Part shown: in pieces, positions 4,636 to 38,659 of the stretch
How the letters are laid out: each line of letters opens with the position of its first letter
Numbering within the stretch: the stretch's first letter is position 1
Sequence record: NC_093712.1
DNA: 41,039 nt
Direction: 5' to 3' (one strand)
Origin: a phage
Translations under genes and position numbers: made by a program
Notes under the pieces: model-generated
Told to the model about the DNA's origin: nothing
The model's database searches: none
The model's input: only the letters and a program-made list of their open reading frames with translations

Positions 4636-4742
4636 TCTTTAGTCCTTTGGTTAAGAGGTTACAGGTTAAGGTTGACGCGCCAGACGGGAACCACCCGCTT
4701 TTCGTGTGCGACACTAGGCGCAAACTTATTCTAGCACACTAC

Positions 4743-4772
4743 TTGCACACCCCAATATAATAGGGTACTATT
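4743..4772 (+). promoter_or_regulatory. sigma70-like promoter (TTGCAC-17-TACTAT) with operator AATAG-N4-CTATT at 4759-4772; drives plus-strand accessory island
   Basis: Motif CTTGCACACCCCAAyATAATAGGrTACTATTCAC also found upstream of genes at 24188..24153 and 22701..22667 (minus strand); followed by RBS GAGGAA and ATG at 4800. Confidence 0.5.
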
Positions 4773-4799
4773 CACCTGTAACTTACTGAGGAAATAATT

Positions 4800-12055: not shown

Positions 12056-12682
12056 TTATCCTCGTTTGCCGTATTTGGCGTTAAGTTTTTGCTGGATTAC
12101 GTCCGCACCACCGGCCCCGCCAGTAGAATTTTTGTTACCGGAAGCCCCGCCGCCGGTTGCCGCATCTGCTTTAATCAGATGCGAAAATGCTTTGTGCTCA
12201 CGCAGATACTTTTTAAATTGCTCTGCGTCGGTGGTGATGACATTACCGTCTGCACCTGTGAACTTGGTCACAACGTCATCGCCGTCAAATTCGGTCTTGA
12301 CCATCATAGCGATAATATCCGCTGCGCTCTCATCAATCAACATTCCAGACAACTGGCTGATAACTGATTTACGTTCCGCGCCGAGGATACGCTCAGCCAT
12401 TTTGCTAATCTTACCGTCTTTCTCGGCGAGTACTGGCTCATACTGACTGCGCAACGTTTTCTCGAATGCCTCAAGTTCGCCGTTCTGTTTTGCGCGTTCC
12501 TGTTCGGCTTTCAGCTTCGCATCTGCGGCTTCTTTCGCGGCAGCGGCGGCAGCTTTCTTTTCAGACAAGAGTTTCTCGTTGTTAGCTTTAAGACCGGATA
12601 CCAGCGCGTCAACTTCTTCTTTGGTAAACGTGGTCTTAGTCTCTTGTTGTTCGATAGTTTCGTCTTTCACTTCTTCGCTCAT
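12056..12682 (-). CDS. capsid scaffolding protein
   Basis: Highly charged Ala/Lys/Glu-rich helical protein immediately upstream of capsid gene; ATG at 12682 with GGGGA RBS (track start 12733 lacks RBS). Confidence 0.65.
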   Translation of the reverse strand: MSEEVKDETIEQQETKTTFTKEEVDALVSGLKANNEKLLSEKKAAAAAAKEAADAKLKAEQERAKQNGELEAFEKTLRSQYEPVLAEKDGKISKMAERILGAERKSVISQLSGMLIDESAADIIAMMVKTEFDGDDVVTKFTGADGNVITTDAEQFKKYLREHKAFSHLIKADAATGGGASGNKNSTGGAGGADVIQQKLNAKYGKRG

Positions 12683-12761
12683 CAGTATGTCCCCTGGACG
12701 TTGGAATCCGGGCCACCCGGATTTACATGTCAAGAATAAATTATTCCAACATACAAGGCAA

Positions 12762-13025
12762 CTATTCCAGAATATTCCTCACGTAATCCTGCAACATGAA
12801 CACTTTAAGTCTCAGTTGCCGTACACATTCTGCGTTCTGGACGTCAATAGCTAAATCCTCGTCCGCGTCGTTACTTGGCAGTGCCAGTTTGCACGGCGGC
12901 TGCATCATCGTCGTATCCGGGGATGGAATTGGCGTTTGCGACGGCGCGGGACTTGAGCTGCACGCGCTCAGGGTCAAAAGTGCACACGCTGCGGCCAGGC
13001 GTTTTAATGTACTTAACGACTTCAC
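12762..13025 (-). CDS. o-spanin (Rz1-like outer-membrane lipoprotein)
   Basis: 87 aa, signal peptide with lipobox LTLSAC, Pro-rich mature part; starts inside and in a different frame from the i-spanin gene and extends past it (overlapped architecture). Confidence 0.7.
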   Translation of the reverse strand: MKSLSTLKRLAAACALLTLSACSSSPAPSQTPIPSPDTTMMQPPCKLALPSNDADEDLAIDVQNAECVRQLRLKVFMLQDYVRNILE

Positions 13026-13257
13026 GGGTGATCACCTCTGATTTCGTCTTGCCTTCGTTATCGGCGGCTGCGGCCTTTGATTCATCCTGCTGCTGCCGTT
13101 GTGTTTTCTTCGCCAGCTCAGCCTGTGCTTTCTGCTGTTGCCGCGAAACGAGATTAGCGCGACCTTCGTTCCAGCCGCTGCGATACTGATAAATGCCGTG
13201 TGCGTAAGCCAGGATGATGAAACATGTTCCCGCTACGACAGTTGCTTTAAGATTCAT
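12871..13257 (-). CDS. i-spanin (Rz-like inner-membrane spanin)
   Basis: 128 aa, N-terminal TM segment ATVVAGTCFIILAYAHGIY, then coiled-coil QQQKAQAELAKK; embeds the lipoprotein ORF. Confidence 0.7.
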   Translation of the reverse strand: MNLKATVVAGTCFIILAYAHGIYQYRSGWNEGRANLVSRQQQKAQAELAKKTQRQQQDESKAAAADNEGKTKSEVITREVVKYIKTPGRSVCTFDPERVQLKSRAVANANSIPGYDDDAAAVQTGTAK

Positions 13258-13362
13258 GTTTCTCCTTTCTCGATAAGTAAAGCCCCGCCATAAAGCGGGG
13301 CGCTAGTCCTCATCATTTAAACATAGAAACGGCGTAATCTCAGTAAACCAGTTACTTTTTAC

Positions 13363-13522
13363 ACAAGCAATAGAGTATGGCCCTTCCGAACGCGTCAGCG
13401 TAACTACACTCAGGACTTACGTCCCGCTCCGTTACCTGCCCGCGCCGCGGTCGCTTGTTCATACTTCACAAGCTCAGGTGGAGCTTAGCACATTTTCAGT
13501 GAAAAGTCAACTATTCGAATAG
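13363..13522 (-). promoter_or_regulatory. conserved promoter plus structured leader element, copy 1 (TTGACT-17-TGnTAAGCT promoter at 13510..13482, then conserved hairpins)
   Basis: ~145 nt shared with 24338-24482 (blocks TATGGCCCTTCCGAAYGCGTCAGCG, CGGTCGCTTGTTCATACTTCACAAGCTCAGG, GAGCTTA, AAAAGTCAA); no conserved ORF; followed by hairpin GCGCCCCGC/GCGGGGC (13281-13305) before spanin RBS. Confidence 0.5.
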
Positions 13523-13572
13523 TTTATTCCAACATTTACAATTATGTGGAATAACTGGAATAATCACAGGCG

Positions 13573-13606
13573 CTAAAAAGCCCCTTTCGGGGCTTAAGTT
13601 TATTCT
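13573..13606. terminator. rho-independent terminator (bidirectional)
   Basis: AAGCCCC-TTTC-GGGGCTT hairpin with flanking T/A runs; just past stop of gene 13600..14061. Confidence 0.7.
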
Positions 13607-14061
13607 GGCTTCGTAGCCTTCGCAGCTTTACTCACCGCCTCAACTCCAGTGGCATCAGTAACTTTAACGAAGTATTCACCCACCGCGTTAACCGTCAGAG
13701 ACAAAGCCTCTTCCGGGGCGTTTACCACTTCCTTGCCGTCTTTGTACCAGGTCAGAGTATACGGCGCTTTACCTGCCTTAACTTCGACGGTGATGGTGGC
13801 GCTACCGTCGACCAGCTCGGTGTCTTTCGGTTGCACCGAGAAATACACGTCACCTGCATCCGCCAGATACGGAATCTCGTAAAGCATACCCGCCGCGGGC
13901 AACGCAATGCCCGTTTTATCTGCAAACGGCATATCGTCTACAGGGGTACCCAGTACACTTTCGTCCCCAATAGACACCACGTTCTCACCTGAGCCGGACA
14001 CACGAGCAAACTGGACAACACGGCGCGACGGCACATCAGTTACTTTGAAAAAGCCCATCAT
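13600..14061 (-). CDS. Ig-like domain virion protein (possible head decoration or accessory protein)
   Basis: 153 aa; C-terminal TITVEVKAGKAPYTLTWYKDGKEV...YFVKVTDATG resembles bacterial Ig-like (Big) fold; ATGA-coupled to head morphogenesis gene. Confidence 0.5.
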   Translation of the reverse strand: MMGFFKVTDVPSRRVVQFARVSGSGENVVSIGDESVLGTPVDDMPFADKTGIALPAAGMLYEIPYLADAGDVYFSVQPKDTELVDGSATITVEVKAGKAPYTLTWYKDGKEVVNAPEEALSLTVNAVGEYFVKVTDATGVEAVSKAAKATKPE

Positions 14062-18687: not shown

Positions 18688-18849
18688 GTCTCATTTGAAG
18701 AAACCATCCTTGACAAGCTGACGGTATAGTTTAGCTGCGTAACGCTCTGCCTGGCCTTTGCGCCGAAATATTTTCCCATTAACTGAATACTTATTTAACT
18801 CTGGCTCGTACCAAACTTGGTTGTCGATGAACTCCAGAATACTAATCAT
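18688..18849 (-). CDS. hypothetical small protein (53 aa)
   Basis: Manually found; strong RBS GAGGAG, ATGA coupling to upstream gene. Confidence 0.45.
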
Positions 18850-19082
18850 CCCCCACTCTCCTCTTTAGCAATACGTTGCTCAGTTTTAGTGATACCCCGG
18901 CGCGTGAATAACACCGGGCTTGTCTTAACGTGCGTCATCAGACGGTTGTTATAAATTACATGGCGCTCGCAGTTAACGTCTTTGCTGTACTTGGCAATCG
19001 TCATTTCGTTGATGCCGGTTTGTCGGCATGTCTCAGCCATCGCGCCGTATTCTTTAATCAGGTTTGGAATGCTGGTAATCAT
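18846..19082 (-). CDS. hypothetical small protein with possible HTH
   Basis: ATGA-coupled start at 19082 (track ORF extends to 19106); segment TCRQTGINEMTIAKY is HTH-like. Confidence 0.45.
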   Translation of the reverse strand: MITSIPNLIKEYGAMAETCRQTGINEMTIAKYSKDVNCERHVIYNNRLMTHVKTSPVLFTRRGITKTEQRIAKEESGG

Positions 19083-19255
19083 CCTAAGAAATTCCTCGTT
19101 GTCCACATCGCATTCGGATATTTGTTATCGCGGTCCTGCACTACGGCAACCATGTTACCGCGTTGCACCAGGCAAAAGTGCCGTTGTTGCTCGCCGTTGT
19201 AACGACGCCAGATTGCCTCTTCGATTGCTGCGTTGATGTCACTGAACATATTCAT
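19079..19255 (-). CDS. hypothetical small protein (58 aa)
   Basis: Manually found ORF MNMFSDINAAIEEAIWRRYNG..., ATGA-coupled at both ends. Confidence 0.4.
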   Translation of the reverse strand: MNMFSDINAAIEEAIWRRYNGEQQRHFCLVQRGNMVAVVQDRDNKYPNAMWTTRNFLG

Positions 19256-20265: not shown

Positions 20266-20855
20266 TCATTTAACCGCCCTACCGATAGCCTCAGCCTCTT
20301 GCCACGGTTTACCGTCGAACAGCGCCAGACGCCCGGCTGTACGGCGACGCAGGCCAAGTAGTGGTTTGCCGTTCTGGTTGATGAACAGCGCCAGCTTGGC
20401 CCGCAGCGTCGCAGTATCACCGGAACGCAGTGCCTTACCCGTGCCGGTAGTAGCTGCAATCACACCGGCACCAGCGTTATACACCAGGTCGCACATTGCA
20501 CGAACCCCTTCATGAAGGTGGGGGACGGAACGCAGTGCCTACCCGTGCCGGTAGTAGCTGCAATCACACCGGCACCAGCGTTATACACCAGGTCGCACAC
20601 TGCATCGAACTGCGCCTGTGTCAATGAATGGTGTGCTGCCGCATCGACCGCGGCCACGGCCTTAGCCATATCGCGATTCAGTAACAGGAGGCCTTGTCCT
20701 GGGGTGATGGTCTTGCCTGGAGTCACGTCCGGCCCGTAGTGCCCGTACCCAATAGTCAGGTACTTCTCGTTCGGCGTAGCGCGATACGCAGTTCCGCGGA
20801 ATCCCTCGAACGCGGCACAGAAATGCAATCCATTATCTGAAATATTTCGAGACAT
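20266..20855 (-). pseudogene. endolysin (GH24 phage lysozyme) with reading frame interrupted by 105-bp imperfect tandem duplication
   Basis: N-part (20460..20855) has lysozyme motif FEGFRGTAYRATPNEKYLTIGYGHYG; C-part (20266..20496) continues in another frame; both fragments contain CDLVYNAGAGVIAATTGTG encoded by the duplicated DNA. Confidence 0.7.
20421..20599. repeat. imperfect tandem direct repeat (2 copies, period 105 bp) with palindrome CCTTCATGAAGG at junction
   Basis: 20421-20495 and 20526-20599 are identical except a 1-nt indel; similarity extends ~10 nt further; 12-bp perfect palindrome at 20507-20518 between copies. Confidence 0.8.
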
Positions 20856-22523: not shown

Positions 22524-22641
22524 ATTCTTCGCTCACCCCGTTATAGACGCCGTTGTAGTCCCCGTCGCAGATGAACGGGTAGCGCATATCTTCGTACTCG
22601 TCCTGCAGCTCACCTAAAGTTACTTCGCTATAATCTCTCAT
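22513..22641 (-). CDS. hypothetical small protein (42 aa)
   Basis: Manually found; RBS GAGGAGA; first ORF downstream of promoter at 22701..22667. Confidence 0.3.
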   Translation of the reverse strand: MRDYSEVTLGELQDEYEDMRYPFICDGDYNGVYNGVSEEYEH

Positions 22642-22666: not shown

Positions 22667-22701
22667 AAATGAATAGTAGCCTATTCTATCTTAGTGTGCA
22701 A
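22667..22701 (-). promoter_or_regulatory. promoter (TTGCAC-17-TACTAT) with operator AATAG-N4-CTATT (22672-22685)
   Basis: Same conserved motif as 4743-4772 and 24153-24188, oriented toward downstream minus-strand genes. Confidence 0.45.
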
Positions 22702-22708
22702 GTAAATT

Positions 22709-24125: not shown

Positions 24126-24152
24126 AACCCTCACTCCTCTGTCTCGTTTCGA

Positions 24153-24188
24153 TAAGTGAATAGTATCCTATTATGTTGGGGTGTGCAA
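24153..24188 (-). promoter_or_regulatory. early-left promoter (TTGCAC-17-TACTAT) with operator AATAG-N4-CTATT (24159-24172)
   Basis: Conserved motif; -35 at 24188..24183, -10 at 24165..24160; RBS and ATG follow ~30 nt downstream on minus strand. Confidence 0.5.
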
Positions 24189-24337
24189 GAGATTAGTTAC
24201 GTTGCCGTTGTGATTCTTTTGTTTAATGGGGTAGCGAGCGAAACGAACGTGGTGCCGGAGGCACCAAGAGTGAGTGAGTGAGCTTGCGGTTCTGACCTAC
24301 GGCAAATCAATAACTTAGATATTTAGGCGGGGAATTA

Positions 24338-24482
24338 TAATAGACTATGGCCCTTCCGAATGCGTCAGCGAGGCTCACTCCACACGTCGAGACGTGCTCG
24401 TTTCGCCTGCCGCGCACCGCGGTCGCTTGTTCATACTTCACAAGCTCAGGACGAGCTTACCATATTTCTCAGTAAAAGTCAA
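24338..24482 (-). promoter_or_regulatory. conserved promoter plus structured leader element, copy 2 (TTGACT-17-TGnTAAGCT at 24482..24454)
   Basis: Near-identical blocks to 13363-13522; hairpin CACGTC-GA-GACGTG (24373-24386) replaces GGAC-TTAC-GTCC of copy 1 at the same relative position; perfect TATAAT on plus strand at 24336-24341 is an alternative reading. Confidence 0.5.
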
Positions 24483-24589
24483 TACCAGTAGCATCTTTTG
24501 CATCTTAGTAACTTTGTGTGGTGTTTTGGTTGCTTTTACATTCCCGCTATCCTATACTCGGTTCCACCAAACAAACAGGAGATATGAAA

Positions 24590-24772
24590 ATGCCGCATTA
24601 CATGACACAGAATGAAGTAGCTGAACGTATCGGGGTGACACGTCAGACAATTAATAACTGGCTGCGCAGTGGTAAATTCCCGGATTGCTGTATTAAGGTT
24701 ATGGGTCGCCGTTTACCGGGAACATTCGACCGTAATAAAGTTGAAGCATGGATTAAGGAGAACGTGAAATGA
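24590..24772 (+). CDS. small HTH DNA-binding protein (AlpA/excisionase-like HTH)
   Basis: ATG at 24590 with AGGAG RBS (track ORF starts upstream at 24518); MTQNEVAERIGVTRQTINNWLRSGKFP is a typical HTH_17-type motif. Confidence 0.6.
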   Translation: MPHYMTQNEVAERIGVTRQTINNWLRSGKFPDCCIKVMGRRLPGTFDRNKVEAWIKENVK

Positions 24773-25178: not shown

Positions 25179-27436
25179 ATATTGTTTTTGCGACGCTGCG
25201 TAACACATTCGATAAAAACCCTGTAGCGCGTGAAATGCCACTGGAGCAGTTTGTGGAGTATGTCTGCGATACATCGAAGCGTTTATCCGTGGATCCGTCG
25301 TGGTCTAAGGAAGAGTACGACGCTGCCAAGATTAAGCAGAAAGCTATCGCGCCTGTTGGGGGTCGCCGTAAAAACGCTATCCTTGAAGACAGTGTGGTTA
25401 AGTTCGACTTCGACCATCTCAACCGTACTCAGTACCGCTACCTGACACGCAAATTCAAGAACGCGACGTTCTTCAACATTCTGCACACAACGGCATCGCA
25501 TCAGCATGCGTGTAAAAACGGGGATTACGCATTCCGCGTTCTGGTTCCAGCTCGCACGCCGTTTAACTCTAACGACGCGTGGATGGTGCAACGTGCTATT
25601 TGTGCCGAGTTAGAAATAGATGAATCGCTGCGCGACCACTGCACGGAAGACGGCAACCGCCTCATCTACCTGCCACATAAAGAGTCTAAGATAACGGTTA
25701 CAGAAGGGCGTGTTATCCGTGCGGAGCGGTACATCAAGAAAGCCGAAGAGATGGGGCTGCGTAAACGCGAGGCTAAGACACTTGCCGCCGATGAGCACGG
25801 GCTTAACGCAGATATAGCTCATTTCTGCGAAGCCGAGCTGGGCCTTGACGCTTTATCTTCCGGCCGAGGGTATGAAGTGCCATGCCCTAATGAACATCTG
25901 CATACAGGCAAAGGCTCCACCAGCATCATGCTTGACGGTAAAGAGGTGCGCTTCGTGTGCCAGCACACAAACAACGGCGCTTGTACCGAGCTTAACCGTC
26001 GGCAACATTTGGCCTTGCGTATGTGCGGCCTGCCCGACGAGCTTAACGTAGACAAGCAACCTATCAGTATTAACAGCATTCGTGCGGCTTTGCCTGACTT
26101 ACCGGACGAAGAGATTGAAGAACTGCACCGCACAGAGAACGAGGAGCCTGTAACTTGTACGCTTGAAGACCTCGAAGACGAGCCGGAAGTAGAAAAAGAA
26201 CCTGCTTACCCCGTAGTAGACGGCCTTATGCAGACCAACGAATCGTTCTACATTTGCGCAAAGTCCCACACTGGTAAGTCAACATTTAGTATGGCGATTG
26301 ATGCTGCTATCGCCGCCGAAAAAAGATATGCGTTCGGTGGTGCTGAGGTCGCAGAAGGTTGTGCATTTATCTTCGCGGGCGAAGGTGCGCAGTCGTTCGA
26401 GAGTCATAAAAAATCTTTGCAGATTGCACTTGGCGATAGCCTCGACCGCTTACACATTATCGATTGTGTTGCAGATGGGTGTAACCTCCTCGACGAAGCA
26501 TGGCGTCGCCAGGCGGTGAGAATGATGCGCCGTGTTGCCGGTGAAGAGAAAATTGTAAAGGTTACGTTTGATACTCTACAAACTTGCATACCGGGCTTCG
26601 ACGAGAACGACAACCGGTCTATGAAAGAAGCAGCGCAGGCGCTTAACGAAATAGCATCGACGCTTAACGCCGCGGTAGGTGCAATGGTGCACCCGACTAA
26701 AAACATCGACGAAACCGTACCATCCGAGAACGGCATGATGCCGAAAGGTGGTAGTGATTTTCACAACTCCATCGATAACGGGATGTTTCTGCATAAACCG
26801 GACAACGATAACAACTTAGAGATAAACCTGTACCACATAAAGAACCGAAACGGAGAACGGCAGAAAGCCAGAGGATTCGTAATACAGAAGATTCAGATAG
26901 CGGAACCACCAGAAAAGAAAGAACCAACTCACAACTTCATGGGTCTTCCAGAAGGGTACAGTAGTGACGATGTGCGCGATTTTGACGCGGGAAATCCGCA
27001 TATTGATGTCTTTGTCAACTTCAACGCCTTCTCTGTCTTCGTGAAGAAAGTAGAAGGTATGACCGACGAACAGAAGGAAGCCGTTAAAGAAAAGGTAGGC
27101 CAGTTCGAGAAACTGGATTCCAAAGAGGCTACGGTTATTTACGCATTGGGTAAATTGCAGGAGCAGGGTGACGACAAGCGCGGGTTTTCTATGTCCGCTA
27201 TCGTCAAAGCGGCGAAAGAAGATAGTTACGGCGTACCGATTAACGCTAATAACGACCTTCGAAAGAAACTGGAAGAGATGCATGAGGCCGGGATTATCGT
27301 CTCGGGTCTGGATAACAACAACAGGCCCATACCTAAGCAGTACCGGCTGCCGTGGGGCATAAACGACAACAAGATTCCGAAGACGATATACGAACCGAAT
27401 GAGATGCTGATAGTGACCGAGGAAGATTTGGAATAG
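25175..27436 (+). CDS. replication protein: primase-like N-terminal region with zinc-binding motif fused to P-loop NTPase (helicase-like) domain
   Basis: 753 aa; CPNEHLHTGKG...CQHTNNGAC zinc-finger-like; Walker A AKSHTGKST and Walker B-like hydrophobic-D segment. Confidence 0.6.
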   Translation: MNIVFATLRNTFDKNPVAREMPLEQFVEYVCDTSKRLSVDPSWSKEEYDAAKIKQKAIAPVGGRRKNAILEDSVVKFDFDHLNRTQYRYLTRKFKNATFFNILHTTASHQHACKNGDYAFRVLVPARTPFNSNDAWMVQRAICAELEIDESLRDHCTEDGNRLIYLPHKESKITVTEGRVIRAERYIKKAEEMGLRKREAKTLAADEHGLNADIAHFCEAELGLDALSSGRGYEVPCPNEHLHTGKGSTSIMLDGKEVRFVCQHTNNGACTELNRRQHLALRMCGLPDELNVDKQPISINSIRAALPDLPDEEIEELHRTENEEPVTCTLEDLEDEPEVEKEPAYPVVDGLMQTNESFYICAKSHTGKSTFSMAIDAAIAAEKRYAFGGAEVAEGCAFIFAGEGAQSFESHKKSLQIALGDSLDRLHIIDCVADGCNLLDEAWRRQAVRMMRRVAGEEKIVKVTFDTLQTCIPGFDENDNRSMKEAAQALNEIASTLNAAVGAMVHPTKNIDETVPSENGMMPKGGSDFHNSIDNGMFLHKPDNDNNLEINLYHIKNRNGERQKARGFVIQKIQIAEPPEKKEPTHNFMGLPEGYSSDDVRDFDAGNPHIDVFVNFNAFSVFVKKVEGMTDEQKEAVKEKVGQFEKLDSKEATVIYALGKLQEQGDDKRGFSMSAIVKAAKEDSYGVPINANNDLRKKLEEMHEAGIIVSGLDNNNRPIPKQYRLPWGINDNKIPKTIYEPNEMLIVTEEDLE

Positions 27437-27445
27437 GCAAAAAGA

Positions 27446-27464
27446 AAGGGGCGTTAAGCCCCTT
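27446..27464. terminator. bidirectional hairpin terminator between convergent primase and XRE genes
   Basis: AAGGGGC-GTTAA-GCCCCTT; the XRE stop codon lies in the loop. Confidence 0.6.
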
Positions 27465-27669
27465 CACCTAGCGCCAGCCACTTGGCGTCTACTTCCAGCA
27501 CTTCCGCCAGTTTAAACAGCGTTGCCGGGCGGACGTCCTGAGTTACACCGAGCGCAAGCTGGTTAATCGCGCCCTGGGAAACGCCGGTCAGGACAGCCAG
27601 ACGGCGCTGGGAGATGCCGAGTTCTTTACGGCGTTGTTCTACGCGGATGCCTAGTTCAGATGGTTGCAT
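27454..27669 (-). CDS. XRE/Cro-CI family HTH transcriptional repressor
   Basis: 71 aa; RKELGISQRRLAVLTGVSQGAINQLALG is a canonical XRE-type HTH; divergently placed beside operator-bearing promoters; RBS TAAGGAG. Confidence 0.75.
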   Translation of the reverse strand: MQPSELGIRVEQRRKELGISQRRLAVLTGVSQGAINQLALGVTQDVRPATLFKLAEVLEVDAKWLALGEGA

Positions 27670-27689: not shown

Positions 27690-27762
27690 TTGATATGTGA
27701 ATAGTACCATATTAATTATTTTAGAAAAGCCCATTGACAAGTGAATAGTTCGCTATTATAGT
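27690..27762 (+). promoter_or_regulatory. tandem early-right promoters (TTGATA-17-TAATTA and TTGACA-17-TATAGT), each with operator AATAG-N4-(C/A)TATT in the spacer; overlaps divergent -10 TATAAT for the XRE gene
   Basis: Operators at 27700-27713 and 27744-27757; minus-strand TATAAT at 27760..27755. Confidence 0.55.
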
Positions 27763-27793
27763 TAGCCCATACCAAACGAGAGGAGAGAAACAA

Positions 27794-30301: not shown

Positions 30302-30330
30302 GTTGACACCTGAATAGTAAGCTATTATAG
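30302..30330 (+). promoter_or_regulatory. promoter TTGACA-17-TATAGT with operator AATAG-N4-CTATT (30312-30325)
   Basis: Perfect -35, operator in spacer; upstream of SSB-like gene. Confidence 0.55.
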
Positions 30331-30386
30331 TTCTAATCACTGGCCGGGCAGCTTCCCCGGAGTAAACTTAAAAGCGAGAAATCACG

Positions 30387-33609: not shown

Positions 33610-33890
33610 CACCGGAAGGCAAAATACAGAAATACGCAAAAGAGCGATTCGAGGCCATCGGCGGCCTCGTTCGTAAGCTCTCCTACGAGGGGCGCTCCGG
33701 CGCTCCCGACCTGCTGGTAATTCTCCCCGGCGGCATAGTCTGGTTCGTCGAGGTGAAGAAAGACGAAAACACGAAGCCGGACCCGCACCAGATACGTGAG
33801 CACGAGCGGATGCGTAAACGTGGTGCGAATGTTTTTGTCGTTGGTTCGTTTAAACAGGTTGACGACCTAATAGCGAGCTATTATAGTTAA
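33606..33890 (+). CDS. VRR-NUC domain nuclease
   Basis: PD-(D/E)XK-type signature GAPDLLVIL...VWFVEVKK; ATG at 33606 is ATGA-coupled (track start 33591 is TTG). Confidence 0.7.
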   Translation: MTPEGKIQKYAKERFEAIGGLVRKLSYEGRSGAPDLLVILPGGIVWFVEVKKDENTKPDPHQIREHERMRKRGANVFVVGSFKQVDDLIASYYS

Positions 33891-34117: not shown

Positions 34118-35542
34118 ATGTCTAAATTTATCCGTCGAGAGTACCAGAAGCTCATGACTTCGTTCATGTTGCAACACCCTCGCTGTAATATCTGGTGCGG
34201 CATGGGAGGGGGTAAAACCTCCTCTACTATGTGGGTGCTCAATCGACTGTTCCGTAATGGGCAACTTAATGACGACGACCGAGTGTTAATTCTGGCCCCT
34301 TTACGTGTTGCGTCCGGTACGTGGCCCGCAGAACAAGAGAAATGGAACTTCCCTTGTCTGCGTGTCGTCGATGCGACCGGTTCAGAGAAGCGCCGCATCG
34401 CGGCGCTGGAGTCAGATGCTAACGTGGTGTGTACCAACTACGAAGTTATCGAGTGGCTGATTGACTACTACGGCAAAGACGACTGGCCTTTTACGGTTAT
34501 CGTTGCAGATGAGAGTACGAAACTGAAGTCATTCCGTAGCCGTTCTGGTGGTAGCAAGCGGGCAAAGGCGCTCAGCAAAGTGGCGTTCGGTAAAGTTAAG
34601 CGTTTCATCAATCTGACGGGCACACCGTCGCCTAACGGCCTCAAAGACCTGTGGGGCCAGAACTGGTTTATCGACGCTGGCGAGCGCCTCGGTTCATCGT
34701 ACACTGCGTTCACCGACCGCTGGTTCAACTCTGTGCAAAAAGGTAAGTCGGTGATGGCGCGGGAGTATCATGCGCGTCCTGGTGCAGATAATGAGATCCA
34801 CCAGAAGATGAAGGACATTAGTCTCACGATTGACGCCGCTGAGTGGTTCGGTTGTGAAGCGCCTATTATAGTGCCGGTTGAAATCGACCTGCCGAAGAAG
34901 GCGCGTCAGGCGTACATCGATATGGAGGAGAAGTTATTCGCGGAACTGGAGAGCGGAGAAGTTGAAGCGGCTAACGCGGCGGCGAAGACGTCAAAGTGTT
35001 TGCAGATTGCCTCCGGTGCCGTATATGTGTCGGGGCCAGACGGTGAGGCAACCAAAGACTGGGAGAAAGTACACGATACGAAACTGGACGCGCTTGAGTC
35101 GATTGTTGAGGAGCTACAGGGCGCACCGTTACTTGTGGCTTATCAGTTCAAGCACGAACTGGAGCGCATCCTTAAGCGATTTCCGCAGGCTCAGGCGTTT
35201 GCCAAAGGAGCTAAGGGCAATAAACAGATGGAAGCGTGGAATAGAGGCGAAATAGAGATTTTGTGCGTGCATCCTGCGTCAGCAGGCCATGGTTTGAATT
35301 TACAGGACGGCGGACATCATCTGGCGTTTATTTCGCAAGGGTGGAACCTTGAGCACTATTTGCAGGTTGTTGAGCGTATAGGGCCTGTACGCCAGAAGCA
35401 GGCAGGCCACGAGCGCCCGGTGTTCCTCTATCACATCGTTGCTAAAGACACGCTGGACGAGGTTGTTGCCTCGCGCACTGACGAGAAGAAATCGGTACAG
35501 GAAGAGTTGCTTAACTACATGAAGAGACGAGGTAAGAAATGA
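34118..35542 (+). CDS. SNF2/DEAD-like superfamily 2 helicase
   Basis: Walker A GMGGGKTS, DEAD-like VIVADEST, C-terminal helicase-type motifs; ATG at 34118. Confidence 0.75.
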   Translation: MSKFIRREYQKLMTSFMLQHPRCNIWCGMGGGKTSSTMWVLNRLFRNGQLNDDDRVLILAPLRVASGTWPAEQEKWNFPCLRVVDATGSEKRRIAALESDANVVCTNYEVIEWLIDYYGKDDWPFTVIVADESTKLKSFRSRSGGSKRAKALSKVAFGKVKRFINLTGTPSPNGLKDLWGQNWFIDAGERLGSSYTAFTDRWFNSVQKGKSVMAREYHARPGADNEIHQKMKDISLTIDAAEWFGCEAPIIVPVEIDLPKKARQAYIDMEEKLFAELESGEVEAANAAAKTSKCLQIASGAVYVSGPDGEATKDWEKVHDTKLDALESIVEELQGAPLLVAYQFKHELERILKRFPQAQAFAKGAKGNKQMEAWNRGEIEILCVHPASAGHGLNLQDGGHHLAFISQGWNLEHYLQVVERIGPVRQKQAGHERPVFLYHIVAKDTLDEVVASRTDEKKSVQEELLNYMKRRGKK

Positions 35543-35710: not shown

Positions 35711-38659
35711 ATCTTCTAGTGCTGCCAGCCTCTTCTCGAACTCGCGCATCTTCTTACGCTGATAGGCAATCTCTATGAAGAACATCTGGTCCGCCCTAAC
35801 CCCCCATCTGCCGCCGGGAGGGGATACTTGTACAGTCTGGCCATCTTCATCAATATCATACGCAGCTTCAATTGAGTCGTAGCACAAGAAAGCATATTTA
35901 CACTCGGTAGAATCTTTCTCCATAAGCCCATGGTTGACCAAGATGTCTCGCACATCTTGGGCTATCACACCGAAGTGTATCCTTGCAGTGTCACCCTTGA
36001 TTGCTAGGCTTTCAAGCCACTTAAAAGATATTACATGTATATCCTCCCATGCGGTAAGGAGTTGTCCCTCAATTTCCTCTTTGTTCGTCTTAAGTGTACC
36101 ATCAGACGTGTTTATCGTACCGGTGGCCGCGTACACCGTAGTCCACCTATTACCTGCCGAACCTAAAGACACTTTCGAGTCTAAGTAAGGAAGAAAATTG
36201 TTGTATGAGTAGAAGCCTCCTGACGCATACATAATAGCCCTGTTAGGCTTTGCATGGTTTGCCCCGTACAGTTGCAGCAACGCACCATCGGAACTGGATG
36301 CACCATCACCACCGCTAACTATCAGTCTTTGACCCGATGGGGTTTTAGTGGGGACTGTTTTTGAAATCAGCCCGTAATCACCATCAAACCGTGCGCGCAC
36401 GGCAGACTGTTGTGTACCATCGTATTCCAGCCCCGTTACATGCAGGGAGTACACGCTTACATCATTGTCAAACGTTAAAGGTGCTTCTACATGGCGTACA
36501 CCATCTACCCCCATGGCGACAGGTATTGTACGGTTAGGAGTTGCTCCGTATTTGAAATCACGTGATACGTACGGGTGGTCTTCAATCTTTATCCGGTAGC
36601 TATATAAGTCAGCCGGATGCCCATCATGTTTGTACCATAACCTCGCACTGTTATCCCCTATGCTCCAGGGAGAGAAGAAGTCTTCCCCACCAAAGATATA
36701 GTACAACCAGCCATCTTTAACACAGACCGAGCCGACGCCGACAGCAGTGTTAACGATATGACCCTGGTATATTTGGTCGGTAATATTAAACCACTGAACA
36801 TCATCTAAAGATGAAGGCCAGGACGACACATTAACTTTGCACATAAAGGTCCTCGGATACGAACCTTCATAGCGGCTGTCCTGCTCGCCACCTTCCCACT
36901 CACCAAAGGCACGTTCTGTACCAAAGATGTATAGATAGTCACCTACTTTAGCGAACGGAAGATTGGAGTGATGTACATTGTCCGGAAATCGCAAGTAGCT
37001 CCAGTTTTGCCCAGAATCGGTGCTCATCGCCAGTGTAGAGCCAGGGGAAGTAGGTAATGTGCCGCGTGTGGTAAGGTATAACACACCACCATAACTTTTC
37101 ACGCACGGCTCAGAAGCGTTGTCAGCGTATGCCTGAGCGACAGTGCGACGAACGAATACGCCAGGATTGTCATACACGTTACTAAAATACAAGACACCGA
37201 GACGCCTAGGGGACACATCGCCGTTGTGATAGCCGACAGCGATAGTGTAGTTAACATCATCTATAACCGCAAAACTATGTGTCTCCGTGACACACAAATC
37301 AGCGTTAGTGGAGTATGCTACCCCAGGCAATTCGGTAATTTCCCACGGGCTGTCCCAGAATCGCGTTGCGAAGTTCCAGGTAACACCCGCATTGTTTATG
37401 GTGGAACTCGCCGGGCTTGAGAGCGTAACAGTGAACGTATTTCGGTTAATTATAGACGAAACCGTCATATTACCCGATACGCCAGTTGCCGATGTATTAG
37501 AGAAGTTAACCGCATCTCCTGCTTTTAGGCCATGATTTTCTATGACAATGGTAGCAGTAGTGGAGCCAGAACTAATAGTTATTCCGCCGGTTGGGTGTCT
37601 AAAATACGGCATTGGGCGTGACCAAAGTTCTGCCTTCTTCATCCGCATATTAGATAAGTAGCGGGTTTCTATAACGGCATATAATCGGTTGCCGCACGTA
37701 CCCATGCTCATGCAGTGGTAGTTAACTCTGTCCGTAGAAACACTAGCATTATAGTCAGCATGGATTGGAGTCAACCATTCAGGCATTGACCAAGTCTGCC
37801 CGTCGTCTCCAGAGCGAACCCAAGCTACATGTAAGTTTTGAACACCATGTCGTTCGCCCGCCATAAACGGGGCGTAAATAACATGGTCGTAGACGAAAGT
37901 TTTATCCTGCGTCCATGCGTTGTAGAACGGGGTATCCGTCACCTTAGTTAGTGAGCCGTTAAAGAAGCCATCAGCTACATAAGTAAGCGGTTGCCCGGCT
38001 ACGCGCTCGTAAACGAATGCAGCATTCTTAAATTTACTAATGTCAGGTAATTGGGAAACTTTATAAGTCAAACCCCTGCCGTCTATAATCCAATTGTTGA
38101 GGGAAGCTGCTAATACATTAAAAATAGATTGAGTATCATCAGTTACGCCGTCGCCCACGGCGCCCCATGCGCGCGGGTCGTATTCGTCCTTCCATCGCGC
38201 CACATGTAAATCTGGGTACAGAATTGCACCGTTTACATCAGATATTTGCTGCCGCAGTATGACCGACCCGACAGGCTGCCACGCCCCATCTGCCACGCCA
38301 CCGGTGGACTGCGGAGAAGATGACGCTGGGATAATTTTTGGTAGAGCACCCAACCAATAGTACCAATCCCCGTCACCGCCAGAGGACGACGGCCACAAAA
38401 CTGCGGTGTTTCGGTCGTTAGCGGATAGTGTACCGCCTGACGTGAAATCAAAATCTGCCAGTTTAAAACCAGCATCACGCAACACGGCAGGTAACGTCTT
38501 CTGGGTCTGTCCAGTAACCTGATTTGTCGCGTAATCAATATCGGCACCACCGGCGACACCGCCGGATTTGCCAGTGATAACCTCGGCCTCGAAAATCTGA
38601 TGTTTCTTGGCGGTTTGTAAATCCGCCAGGCTTAAAACGTCACCGCATCCGCTTGACAT
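35705..38659 (-). CDS. tailspike: sialidase-fold depolymerase (endosialidase-like) with C-terminal intramolecular chaperone domain
   Basis: 984 aa; two Asp-boxes SGDDGQTW and STDSGQNW; C-terminal TINTSDGTLKTNKEEI...FKWLE resembles the self-cleaving chaperone domain of K1-phage endosialidases and T5 L-shaped fibre (recalled). Confidence 0.6.
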   Translation of the reverse strand: MSSGCGDVLSLADLQTAKKHQIFEAEVITGKSGGVAGGADIDYATNQVTGQTQKTLPAVLRDAGFKLADFDFTSGGTLSANDRNTAVLWPSSSGGDGDWYYWLGALPKIIPASSSPQSTGGVADGAWQPVGSVILRQQISDVNGAILYPDLHVARWKDEYDPRAWGAVGDGVTDDTQSIFNVLAASLNNWIIDGRGLTYKVSQLPDISKFKNAAFVYERVAGQPLTYVADGFFNGSLTKVTDTPFYNAWTQDKTFVYDHVIYAPFMAGERHGVQNLHVAWVRSGDDGQTWSMPEWLTPIHADYNASVSTDRVNYHCMSMGTCGNRLYAVIETRYLSNMRMKKAELWSRPMPYFRHPTGGITISSGSTTATIVIENHGLKAGDAVNFSNTSATGVSGNMTVSSIINRNTFTVTLSSPASSTINNAGVTWNFATRFWDSPWEITELPGVAYSTNADLCVTETHSFAVIDDVNYTIAVGYHNGDVSPRRLGVLYFSNVYDNPGVFVRRTVAQAYADNASEPCVKSYGGVLYLTTRGTLPTSPGSTLAMSTDSGQNWSYLRFPDNVHHSNLPFAKVGDYLYIFGTERAFGEWEGGEQDSRYEGSYPRTFMCKVNVSSWPSSLDDVQWFNITDQIYQGHIVNTAVGVGSVCVKDGWLYYIFGGEDFFSPWSIGDNSARLWYKHDGHPADLYSYRIKIEDHPYVSRDFKYGATPNRTIPVAMGVDGVRHVEAPLTFDNDVSVYSLHVTGLEYDGTQQSAVRARFDGDYGLISKTVPTKTPSGQRLIVSGGDGASSSDGALLQLYGANHAKPNRAIMYASGGFYSYNNFLPYLDSKVSLGSAGNRWTTVYAATGTINTSDGTLKTNKEEIEGQLLTAWEDIHVISFKWLESLAIKGDTARIHFGVIAQDVRDILVNHGLMEKDSTECKYAFLCYDSIEAAYDIDEDGQTVQVSPPGGRWGVRADQMFFIEIAYQRKKMREFEKRLAALEDK

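What the first reader, a model, noticed from the sequence alone, without database searches (positions are those of the whole stretch)
12700..13565. Short repeated motifs flanking the spanin locus (TTATTCCAACAT, tandem TGGAATAA, palindrome CTATTCGAATAG)
TTATTCCAACAT occurs at 12741-12752 and 13525-13536, its reverse complement TGGAATAA occurs in tandem at 13547-13554 and 13556-13563, and a perfect 12-bp palindrome CTATTCGAATAG (13511-13522) abuts the -35 of the leader promoter; an 8-bp perfect hairpin AATCCGGG/CCCGGATT (12704-12722) lies in the spanin-scaffold intercistronic region. These look like clustered protein-binding sites (activator, IHF-like factor or replication or packaging protein) and an mRNA processing or stability hairpin.
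Basis: seen in the sequence. Interest (0 to 1): 0.4.

Follow-up and report, generated by a model that had tools for sequence, protein, structure and literature searches.

The report
Paired GGAATA operator arrays, late promoters
The short repeats are real and highly conserved: they form two matching clusters of GGAATA protein-binding half-sites, which probably control the phage's late (lysis and capsid) promoters, and the nearby hairpin is a conserved RNA stem-loop at the start of the capsid-gene message; the protein that binds the clusters is unknown.

Summary
The window is a K1H-like Kagunavirus (Guernseyvirinae) with all local genes on the minus strand. They are copies of one hexamer, GGAATA/TATTCC, arranged as the same module twice: two direct hexamers, a 15-17 bp gap, then the palindrome GGAATA-N3-TATTC.

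- Array A (13511-13562) lies upstream of the -35 of a sigma-70 promoter for a roughly 200-nt structured spanin leader.
- Array B (12734-12778) brackets the -35 and covers the -10 of a weak promoter-like site (TTGCCT-17-TATTCT) just upstream of the scaffold and capsid genes.
- No other such cluster occurs in the genome.
- The palindrome occurs exactly twice, 756-824 bp apart, in five genomes; the Cornellvirus genome has the pair 664 bp apart plus a third copy. The module is nearly invariant across four lineages.
- In a Hafnia phage, A is flipped. In Cornellvirus, A sits inside the o-spanin gene.
- The hairpin (12705-12723) covaries strongly and starts 9-11 nt after the -10 in every lineage.

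Best reading: paired operator arrays for an unidentified regulator, with B at the promoter and A auxiliary, plus a 5'-proximal mRNA stem-loop. IHF, DnaA-box, origin and pac readings are not supported. This is a real, undescribed but conventional kind of element.

The parts
13557..13562 (-).
   Evidence: Conserved in nearly all relatives with an intact upstream region.
13548..13553 (-). Array A, distal half-site 2 (TATTCC), 9 bp from half-site 1
13517..13530 (-).
   Evidence: One of only two GAATA-N3-TATTC palindromes in the genome. Conserved in Kaguna-, Jersey- and Hafnia-type phages.
13511..13522 (.). Perfect palindrome CTATTCGAATAG overlapping the previous site and abutting the -35; Kagunavirus-specific
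   Evidence: It is replaced by TTTATTCAAAAAG in the Jersey type.
13482..13510 (-). Leader promoter: -35 TTGACT (13505-13510), 17-bp spacer, extended -10 TGcTAAGCT (13482-13490); predicted start near 13475
   Evidence: The core is conserved in relatives. A second copy of the promoter is at 24454-24482. A promoter is annotated at the equivalent place in phage PVP-SE2.
13275..13475 (-). Roughly 200-nt structured spanin leader ending in the terminator-like hairpin 13282-13301
13535..13564 (+). Plus-strand promoter-like site embedded in array A (TTTACA-18-TGgAATAAT), facing the bidirectional terminator at 13578-13595
   Evidence: Kept in the Jersey type, degenerate in relatives with an inserted divergent gene, and absent in Hafnia.
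12773..12778 (-). Array B, distal half-site 1 (GGAATA; within the o-spanin codons R-N-I)
   Evidence: Invariant at synonymous sites in 43 sequences. Absent in Cornellvirus and Hafnia.
12763..12768 (-). Array B, distal half-site 2 (GGAATA; overlaps the o-spanin stop codon TAG at 12762-12764), abutting the -35
   Evidence: Present in all four lineages.
12756..12761 (-). Candidate -35 TTGCCT of the scaffold-capsid promoter P_B, in the gap of array B
   Evidence: TTGCCT is invariant in Kaguna, Jersey and Cornell; Hafnia has TTGCTT.
12734..12747 (-). Array B, proximal palindrome GGAATA-att-TATTC. Its right half plus T (12733-12738, TATTCT) is the candidate -10 of P_B.
12705..12723 (-). RNA stem-loop AAUCCGGG-ugg-CCCGGAUU, starting 9 nt after the -10 (about +4 of the predicted transcript)
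12690..12695 (-). Ribosome-binding site AGGGGA of the scaffold gene (ATG at 12680-12682)

Best explanation
The motifs are half-sites (GGAATA) of one composite DNA-binding module that occurs twice, 783 bp apart in this window. Each copy has two direct hexamers one helical turn apart, a 15-17 bp gap, and the palindrome GGAATA-N3-TATTC. The four hexamers therefore lie roughly on one face of the helix.

Array B is the primary site. Its gap holds the -35 (TTGCCT) and its palindrome covers the spacer and -10 (TATTCT) of a weak sigma-70 promoter that starts the scaffold/major-capsid transcript. That transcript begins with a conserved stem-loop, which most likely protects the 5' end from decay.

Array A lies just upstream of the -35 of the leader promoter that drives the spanin genes. 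Its orientation and exact position are not fixed in relatives, so it acts as a second, auxiliary site.

A sequence-specific, probably multimeric DNA-binding protein occupies both arrays and sets the timing or level of transcription from these two internal late promoters. I lean towards operator-type control, meaning occupancy of the P_B core promoter, possibly helped by A-B looping over the spanin genes, and possibly with a lambda OR-like opposite effect on the adjacent leader promoter.

Shown: the anatomy, the enrichment, the conservation and the RNA covariation. Inferred: protein binding, the P_B start site, the sign of regulation and the looping. The binder is unidentified. A NinH-like protein is the best-conserved phage candidate, and a conserved host factor is equally possible.
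For: - Enrichment. Clusters of the pentamer occur only at A and B in the window and in five other complete genomes, apart from four weak 3-pentamer clusters (window 22641; Shemara 7650, 35084, 38203). GAATA-N3-TATTC (about 0.04 expected per genome) occurs exactly twice in the window, K1H, Bas76, Jersey and Hafnia TS33, spaced 783, 783, 783, 756 and 824 bp. In Shemara the pair is 664 bp apart, with one extra copy.
- Footprint. In 46 (A) and 43 (B) distinct sequences the hexamers, TTGCCT and TATTCT are invariant or nearly so, while the spacers vary. B is more conserved than the adjoining o-spanin coding sequence, including at synonymous sites.
- Distribution. The A-plus-leader block is found in 180 plus 269 phage records, and B in 483 records. 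BLAST homology to relatives that carry an inserted gene upstream starts exactly at the first hexamer.
- Same architecture in A and B: start-to-start spacings of 9, 23, 9 bp and 10, 21, 9 bp.
- B is a promoter. In Cornellvirus a terminator and a reverse-oriented gene separate the spanins from B, so the scaffold operon must start inside B. TTGC(C/T)T-17-TATTCT is kept in all four lineages.
- A is position- and orientation-independent. It is flipped in Hafnia TS33. In Cornellvirus it is absent from the leader promoter but present inside the start of o-spanin.
- Hairpin. 98.8% of cells are paired, 5 of 8 pairs change on both sides, and 0 of 500 shuffles reach the observed covariation score, cells paired or count of double-changed pairs. 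It sits 9-11 nt after the -10 in every lineage.
- A second copy of the leader promoter (24454-24482) lacks the hexamers, so they are not part of the core promoter.
Against: - No binding protein has been identified and there are no experimental data.
- P_B matches only 8 of 12 consensus positions and is not called by the promoter scan. Its start site is not mapped.
- An overlapping alternative promoter reading (TGgAATAAT extended -10) cannot be excluded.
- The positions of the hexamers relative to the two promoters differ. At B they overlap the -10 and flank the -35. At A they lie at about -36 to -87. A single simple mechanism is therefore not evident and the sign of regulation is a guess.
- The phage-encoded HTH proteins have diverged or are missing in lineages that keep the motif. 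XRE is 35-48% identical. HTH_17 was not detected in Hafnia or Cornellvirus.
- The Cornellvirus 'A' lies in coding sequence and is supported by only two sequences.
Confidence: 0.55

Rival explanations
1. The hexamers are independent upstream activator sites, or architectural (Fis/NinH-like bending) sites. They stimulate each late promoter separately, with no repression and no A-B cooperation.
For: - Both core promoters deviate from consensus (-10 TAAGCT; P_B 8 of 12), as is typical of activator-dependent late promoters.
- Hexamers lie at about -36 to -87 of the leader promoter and at -36 to -51 of P_B.
- A NinH-like gene is the last gene before terS, which is a Q/ogr-like position, and is 62-69% identical in all lineages.
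- Lambda NinH binds and bends a 15-bp pseudo-palindrome (PMC7166090).
Against: - At B the palindrome covers the spacer and -10, where activators do not normally sit.
- A is flipped in Hafnia and displaced into a coding region in Cornellvirus, so it has no fixed register with a promoter.
- The copy of the leader promoter without hexamers has an equally good core.
- The conserved core is G-N11-C, not the G-N13-C of NinH and Fis.
- The residue equivalent to NinH Arg30 is Glu.
Confidence: 0.2
2. No dedicated protein binds. The conserved blocks are promoter elements themselves (extended -10-like TGGAATAAT, -10-like TATTCT, AT-rich UP-like or curved DNA). They are kept unusually similar because they serve as homologous linkers for exchange of the spanin cassette.
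For: - Several hexamers read as -10-like sequences (TGgAATAAT, TGgAATAGT, TATTCT). The scan calls a plus-strand promoter inside A.
- The spanins are mosaic: 62-98% amino-acid identity between flanks that are 94-100% conserved.
Against: - What is invariant is GGAATA, not the -10-critical last T. Examples are TGGAATAAC, TGGAATAAA and, in Hafnia, AATAAG and AATAAA.
- The same four-hexamer geometry recurs in both orientations and inside a coding region.
- Recombination linkers do not explain the invariance of the hexamers against variable spacers.
Confidence: 0.12
3. The arrays are iterons of a replication origin, or terminase (pac) recognition sites, like the repeated-box pac sites of SPP1 and P1 or the ori/crr of P4.
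For: - Two clusters of short repeats in both orientations, in helical phase, AT-rich and a few hundred bp apart, resemble such sites (from general knowledge).
- The phage has a P4-alpha-like primase-helicase and packages by headful (from general knowledge and the annotation).
Against: - Primase-helicase is only 27-29% identical, and TerS 25-34% identical, between lineages that keep the motif unchanged.
- There are no DnaA boxes and no IHF site.
- B coincides base for base with promoter hexamers and a 5' RNA stem-loop.
- The location is in the middle of the late operon, far from terS and the replication genes.
Confidence: 0.07
4. The repeats act at the RNA level, for example as GGA motifs for CsrA or as a long-range helix GUUGGAAU/AUUCCAAC around the hairpin.
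For: Region B is transcribed on the gene strand and contains four GGA motifs plus an 8-nt complement flanking the hairpin.
Against: - Array A lies upstream of its promoter and has hexamers in both orientations.
- The long-range complement is lost in the Jersey, Cornell and Hafnia types, while the hexamers stay.
Confidence: 0.03

Closest known systems
Primary plus auxiliary operators with DNA looping (lac O1/O2/O3, gal OE/OI, deo O1/O2/O3, lambda OL-OR)
   Same: There are two clusters of the same recognition sequence. One overlaps a core promoter. The other lies a few hundred bp away, with no fixed orientation or exact position but always within about 0.65-0.82 kb.
   Different: No repressor has been identified and looping has not been shown. 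The virus is virulent with no lysogeny switch. The half-sites mix direct and inverted orientation.
Phage phi29 p4 sites and the lambda OR switch (one regulator repressing one promoter while activating a neighbouring one)
   Same: Multiple sites for a small regulator lie around closely spaced early/late or divergent promoters. In many relatives array A lies between two divergent promoters.
   Different: The sequence, spacing and protein family are unrelated, and the direction of regulation here is unknown.
Direct- or inverted-repeat arrays bound by small phage/plasmid regulators (P2 Cox boxes, 186 Apl sites, omega-repressor heptads)
   Same: Short 6-9 bp units are repeated about one helical turn apart, in either orientation, near promoters.
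   Different: The HTH_17 (excisionase-like) gene of this phage was not detected in the lineages (Hafnia, Cornellvirus) that keep the motif. No ribbon-helix-helix protein was recognised.
5'-terminal stabilising stem-loops of E. coli mRNAs (ompA type)
   Same: A GC-rich 8-bp hairpin lies within a few nucleotides of the predicted 5' end of a very highly expressed message. Its structure, not its sequence, is conserved.
   Different: The 5' end is predicted, not mapped. The effect on half-life has not been tested.
Published Kagunavirus 'phage promoter' motif tgAATAGTa-ccTATTat-T (PHIRE; PMC9825357)
   Same: It shares the GAATA core and is promoter-associated in the same genomes.
   Different: It is a different element. 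It is a spacer palindrome of the strong early-type promoters (7 copies here) with different half-site spacing. It differs between genera, whereas the GGAATA module does not.

Membership tests
Sigma-70 promoter (leader promoter, 13482-13510, minus strand) | -35 hexamer, 16-18 bp spacer, and a -10 hexamer with A at position 2 and T at position 6, or an extended -10 TG | tested here: met
   TTGACT-17-TG-c-TAAGCT. The core is conserved across genera as TGnTA(A/C)GCT or TAACCT. A second copy is at 24454-24482. A promoter is annotated at this position in PVP-SE2.
Sigma-70 promoter (P_B, 12733-12761, minus strand) | -35 and -10 hexamers at 17 bp, a match above the scan threshold, and a mapped start site | tested here: inconclusive
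   TTGCCT-17-TATTCT matches 8 of 12 positions, below the scan's 9 of 12. It is nevertheless invariant in four lineages, and it is the only candidate start for the scaffold operon in Cornellvirus. The start site cannot be mapped with these tools.
Intrinsic terminator (hairpin 12705-12723) | A GC-rich stem-loop followed by a run of U | tested here: not met
   The stem is present, but it is followed by CCAACGUCC on the gene strand. It is not listed by the terminator scan.
5'-terminal mRNA-stabilising stem-loop | A stable hairpin within a few nt of the 5' end, conserved as a structure | tested here: inconclusive
   The structure is strongly supported: 5 of 8 pairs covary and 98.8% of cells are paired. 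The hairpin lies 9-11 nt after the -10 in all lineages. The 5' end and half-life cannot be tested here.
IHF binding site | Consensus WATCAANNNNTTR | tested here: not met
   There is a single match in the window, at 24305, and none in A or B.
Replication origin (DnaA boxes / iterons of the initiator) | DnaA boxes TTWTNCACA, and iterons that co-vary with the initiator protein | tested here: not met
   There are no DnaA boxes in A or B. The motif is invariant while primase-helicase is only 27-29% identical between lineages.
Q / AlpA-type antiterminator loading site | A binding element embedded between the -35 and -10 of the late promoter, with an intrinsic terminator downstream | tested here: not met
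   The hexamers lie upstream of the -35 of the leader promoter, whereas the AlpA element lies between -35 and -10 (PMC7969949). A terminator-like hairpin does follow the leader.
Fis / NinH-type site | A 15-bp pseudo-palindrome G-N13-C with an AT-rich core | tested here: inconclusive
   Some copies (GGAATAattTATTCC in Hafnia A) fit G-N13-C. The conserved core, however, is GAATA-N3-TATTC, which is G-N11-C. The family motif is taken from PMC7166090.
Primary plus auxiliary operator pair (looping repressors) | The same recognition sequence at a promoter and at a distal site, with the distal site independent of orientation and position, and a multimeric bridging protein | tested here: inconclusive
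   The first two features are met. The protein and the loop cannot be tested with these tools.
Kagunavirus PHIRE motif tgAATAGTa-ccTATTat-T | A palindrome GAATAG-N4-CTATTA lying in the spacer of a TTGACA...TATAGT promoter | tested here: not met
   The copies of that motif are at 24149, 27690, 27734, 30303 and 33859, plus minus-strand copies. A and B have different spacing and context.

The most novel reading that the evidence does not exclude
The two arrays are a paired, loop-forming switch that times late gene expression in a virulent phage. They would be bound either by the conserved NinH-like Fis mimic, which would give the NinH family its first defined regulatory target, or by a low-copy host regulator. 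In the host case, replicating phage DNA would titrate the regulator, so that capsid-gene transcription is coupled to genome copy number.
Probability: 0.15. Interest if true: 0.6.

Novelty: new member of a known kind. Interest (0 to 1): 0.42.

Why it matters
Guernseyvirinae (the Jersey, K1 and Kaguna phages) are among the most frequently isolated Salmonella and E. coli phages and are widely proposed for therapy and biocontrol. Their transcription programme is nevertheless essentially unknown. Published genome papers list only PHIRE 'phage promoters', which one paper (PMC9825357) attributes to a phage-encoded RNA polymerase; no RNA polymerase gene is annotated in the relatives examined.

This analysis defines a nearly invariant cis-regulatory module present in about 480 sequenced genomes. 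It locates the probable promoter and 5' stabiliser of the capsid operon. It also gives concrete baits (arrays A and B) for identifying the late-gene regulator. Finally, the element marks the boundaries of a mosaic spanin cassette.

Tried and rejected
- Rfam search, at gathering threshold over the whole window and at E-value 10 or below over 13200-13620: nothing credible.
- tRNA scan: none. A 'tRNA-Ser' annotated in phage celemicas lies on the other strand over the Hoc terminator and is not reproduced by ARAGORN.
- BLAST of the leader and of array B against 5,426 E. coli genomes: no match.
- Exact scan of IMG/VR for GGAATAATTTATTC: it returned mostly unrelated AT-rich chance matches and was uninformative.
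- IHF and DnaA consensus searches: absent from both arrays.
- The idea that the hexamers are the same operator as the early-promoter spacer palindrome (GAATAG-N4-CTATTA): rejected. The spacing differs, and the early palindrome changes between genera (ATATTAC...TAATAT in Cornellvirus) while GGAATA does not.
- AlpA/Q-type loading site: rejected on position.
- RcsB box (RGA-N4-TCY): it fits only AGGAATATTCT of Kaguna/Jersey array B, which is missing in Cornellvirus and Hafnia (consensus from memory).
- Sigma-54, sigma-E, ArgR, IclR, Fur and NanR resemblances: considered from memory. None fits the spacing or sequence, and none was tested.
- Mini-ORF AUG-UUG-GAA-UAA: it is not conserved in the Jersey type.
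- Long-range RNA helix GUUGGAAU/AUUCCAAC: it is not conserved.
- Two literature searches were unproductive.
Full report
**Context.** The window is a Kagunavirus of the Guernseyvirinae, 95-96% identical to phages K1H and UTI89UKE1 over this region. In the region of interest every gene is on the minus strand. In order of transcription they are:
- portal;
- head morphogenesis;
- Hoc-like decoration protein (13600-14061);
- a terminator (13578-13595);
- a 342-bp intergenic region;
- i-spanin (12871-13257) with the overlapping o-spanin (12762-13025);
- a 79-bp intergenic region;
- scaffold (ATG at 12682) and major capsid protein.

**Observation.** All the motifs exist.
- TGGAATAA is at 13547-13554 and 13556-13563.
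- CTATTCGAATAG is at 13511-13522.
- The hairpin arms are at 12705-12712 and 12716-12723 (one base off).
- The 8-mer TTATTCCA occurs four times in 41 kb, against 0.95 expected and with no shuffle reaching four. All four copies lie within 823 bp.
- The hexamer alone is at background frequency, but its clustering is not. GAATA/TATTC forms two clusters of five within 60 bp, both here. In 300 simulated genomes the maximum was four, reached six times.

**Anatomy.** On the gene strand, region A reads: TATTCC-agt-TATTCC, then 17 nt, then GGAATA-aac-TATTC overlapping CTATTCGAATAG, then TTGACT, then 17 nt, then TG-c-TAAGCT.

Region B reads: GGAATA-ttct-GGAATA-g-TTGCCT-tgtatgtt-GGAATA-att-TATTCT, then 9 nt, then the hairpin, then AGGGGA, then ATG (scaffold).

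Start-to-start spacings are 9, 23, 9 bp in A and 10, 21, 9 bp in B. The hexamers thus lie on roughly one face of the helix.

**Conservation.**
- 48 IMG/VR loci fetched with the spanin protein keep the TATTCC, TATTCC, GGAATA arrangement, including those whose spanin is only 62-66% identical.
- Column-wise, the hexamers, TTGCCT, TATTCT and the leader promoter elements are invariant or nearly so, while the spacers vary.
- B is more conserved than the o-spanin coding sequence it overlaps. The last codons R-N-I-L-E-stop are invariant at synonymous sites in 43 distinct sequences.
- In GenBank phages the A-plus-leader block is found in 180 (Kaguna-type) plus 269 (Jersey-type) records, and B in 483 records.
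- Homology to relatives that carry an inserted divergent gene upstream of A begins exactly at the first hexamer.
- The 12-mer identity between A and B, and the CTATTCGAATAG palindrome, are Kagunavirus-specific. The Jersey type keeps only the hexamers.

**More distant lineages are the most informative**.
- In six complete genomes (window, K1H, Bas76, Jersey, Hafnia TS33, Cornellvirus Shemara), clusters of four or more pentamers within 60 bp occur only at these two places. Weaker 3-pentamer clusters occur at 22641 in the window and, in Shemara, at B, at the displaced A copy (7650), at 35084 and at 38203.
- GAATA-N3-TATTC, with about 0.04 expected per genome, occurs exactly twice in five of them, 756-824 bp apart. 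Shemara has the pair 664 bp apart plus one further copy.
- In Hafnia TS33 the whole A module is inverted relative to the leader promoter: palindrome, 17 nt, then GGAATA-aaa-GGAATA, then -35.
- In Cornellvirus the leader promoter has no hexamers, but GAATA-aat-TATTCC-N17-GGAATA sits inside the first codons of o-spanin. That stretch is identical between two phages that differ at 18% of positions across the spanins.
- A is therefore tied to being within about 0.65-0.82 kb upstream of B, not to a fixed register with a promoter.
- B, by contrast, is always immediately upstream of the scaffold gene. In Cornellvirus a terminator and a reverse-oriented gene lie between the spanins and B, so the scaffold-capsid operon must be transcribed from within B.
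- The only promoter-like sequence there is TTGC(C/T)T-17-TATTCT, which is conserved in all four lineages. It matches only 8 of 12 positions and is not called by the scan. A weak match is what one expects of a regulated late promoter, but its start site remains a prediction.

**Hairpin.**
- Ten distinct versions were found across the lineages: AAUCCGGG/CCCGGAUU, AAUCCGGG/CCCGGGUU, ACACCGGG/CCCGGUGU, AGCCGGG/CCCGGCU and GAGUGGGG/CCCUACUC, with variable loop bases.
- They give 98.8% paired cells and five of eight pairs with changes on both sides. No shuffle reaches the observed values for the covariation score, cells paired or the number of double-changed pairs (57 of 500 reach the count of further pair types). 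Slid controls collapse.
- The U.G wobbles are compatible only with RNA of the gene strand.
- The hairpin has no U-run, so it is not a terminator.
- It starts 9-11 nt after the TATTCT hexamer in every lineage, which is about +2 to +5 of the predicted transcript.
- From established knowledge of E. coli mRNA decay (5'-terminal stem-loops such as that of ompA impede RNase E/RppH-dependent decay), the most likely role is stabilisation of the very abundant scaffold-capsid message. This step is inferred.

**What binds.** Nothing can be shown here.
- The early-type promoters of this phage carry a different palindrome in their spacer, TGAATAGT-N3-CTATTAT, with seven copies. This was published as a PHIRE 'phage promoter' motif for a Kagunavirus (PMC9825357). 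Its half-site spacing differs and it changes between genera, so it is a separate operator. It is probably the target of the XRE-type repressor, whose own upstream region carries it.
- The XRE protein is only 35-48% identical between lineages.
- The HTH_17 (excisionase-like) protein was not detected in Hafnia or Cornellvirus.
- TerS (25-34% identical) and primase-helicase (27-29%) are very divergent.
- The only small DNA-binding candidate conserved in all lineages (62-69%) is a NinH-like protein encoded just before terS (Pfam sub-threshold, E = 2.8e-5).
- Lambda NinH is a Fis-like dimer that prefers a 15-bp G-N13-C site (PMC7166090). Here, however, the conserved core is G-N11-C, and the residue equivalent to the essential Arg30 is Glu. 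The assignment is therefore weak.
- The invariance of the motif across phages of Escherichia, Salmonella, Hafnia and Raoultella is equally compatible with a conserved host factor. No E. coli regulator that I could recall fits.
- IHF and DnaA consensus sequences are absent.

**Mechanism.**
- At B, hexamers lie at about -51/-46, -41/-36, -20/-15 and -11/-6. They flank the -35 and cover the -10, which is an operator-like layout.
- At A, they lie at about -87 to -36 of the leader promoter. In Kaguna and Jersey types they also enclose a plus-strand promoter-like site (TTTACA-18-TGgAATAAT) that faces a terminator.
- The leader promoter has a paralogue at 24454-24482 with an equally good core but no hexamers, so the hexamers are a regulatory add-on.
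- A's independence of position and orientation, and its constant pairing with B, resemble auxiliary operators of looping regulators.
- I therefore favour paired operator arrays that control the two internal late promoters. The sign of regulation and the looping are explicitly inferred. A purely activating role is the main rival.

**Novelty.** The module is not described in the papers I could search. One record annotates a promoter at the equivalent of the leader promoter. In kind it is conventional: promoter-associated binding-site arrays plus a 5' stem-loop. It is real, widespread and unassigned, so it is of moderate interest.

Noticed in passing
window 13275-13475 (minus strand) and 24340-24482 (minus strand): The roughly 200-nt spanin leader is a conserved structured RNA. 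It has a P1 hairpin and a long hairpin closed by CCGCGGYGC/GCRYUCGG (one covarying pair, UA in 7 sequences and CG in 6). Its apical stem shows compensatory changes (GGGAC/GUCC, GGUGC/GCAC, CACGUC/GACGUG) and carries GNRA-type loops. A terminator-like hairpin follows. A paralogous copy, including the promoter, sits at the head of the early rightward operon. Only some Kagunaviruses have two copies. Cornellvirus has a differently sequenced two-hairpin leader (z = -5.45). Rfam has no match. It could be a promoter-coupled element such as a put-like antiterminator RNA, a stabiliser or an sRNA.
   Followed up: partly
window 4742-4775, 22670-22704, 24149-24189, 27690-27763, 30303-30332, 33859-33888: A family of strong sigma-70 promoters has a palindrome in the spacer (TTGACA-NN-TGAATAGT-NNN-CTATTATAGT). 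It reads as a -10 on either strand. It matches the PHIRE motif that PMC9825357 attributed to a phage RNA polymerase; no RNA polymerase gene is annotated in the relatives examined. It is probably the operator of the XRE repressor at 27454-27669.
   Followed up: partly
window 13352-13462 (minus strand): A 36-aa ORF lies inside the leader, and relatives annotate a 'hypothetical protein' here. The ORF is not conserved: it is truncated in the second leader copy, and its ATG is deleted in the Jersey type. It is probably not a gene.
   Followed up: partly
relatives L002, L003, L005 etc., upstream of array A; window 13565-13599: Most relatives carry a small divergent gene with its own early-type promoter, inserted between the Hoc-like gene and array A. 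This window lacks it and has only the Hoc terminator. Array A then lies between two divergent promoters.
   Followed up: partly
window 12762-13257 compared with its flanks: The spanin cassette is mosaic. Its protein identity to relatives ranges from 62 to 98%, while the flanking A-plus-leader and B blocks stay 94-100% identical. For example, SETP13 (L048) has a Kaguna-type leader with a Jersey-like spanin. The conserved arrays may double as recombination linkers.
   Followed up: partly
window 27421-27435: A third, weaker hexamer pair, GGAAGA-ttt-GGAATA (one mismatch to the direct-repeat unit), lies at the stop codon of the primase-helicase gene. As in o-spanin, the gene ends with L-E-stop encoded as YTG GAA TAG.
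   Followed up: no
window 18846-19106 (minus strand): A NinH-like (Fis-mimic) gene lies immediately upstream of terS and is conserved at 62-69% in all four lineages. Thr32, Lys35 and Tyr36 of lambda NinH are kept, but Arg30 is Glu.
   Followed up: partly
window 20436-20500 and 20540-20604: A 65-nt direct repeat, 98% identical, with copies 104 bp apart, lies in the lysis-gene region.
   Followed up: no
L060 (Shemara) 35084-35110: Cornellvirus has a third GAATA-aag-TATTC palindrome with an adjacent TATTC, inside a small gene next to the divergent XRE regulator gene.
   Followed up: no
window 24584-24772 (plus strand): An HTH_17 / excisionase-like gene is present in a virulent phage, divergent from the second leader promoter. 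It is annotated 'excisionase and transcriptional regulator' in relatives and was not detected in Hafnia TS33 or Shemara.
   Followed up: partly
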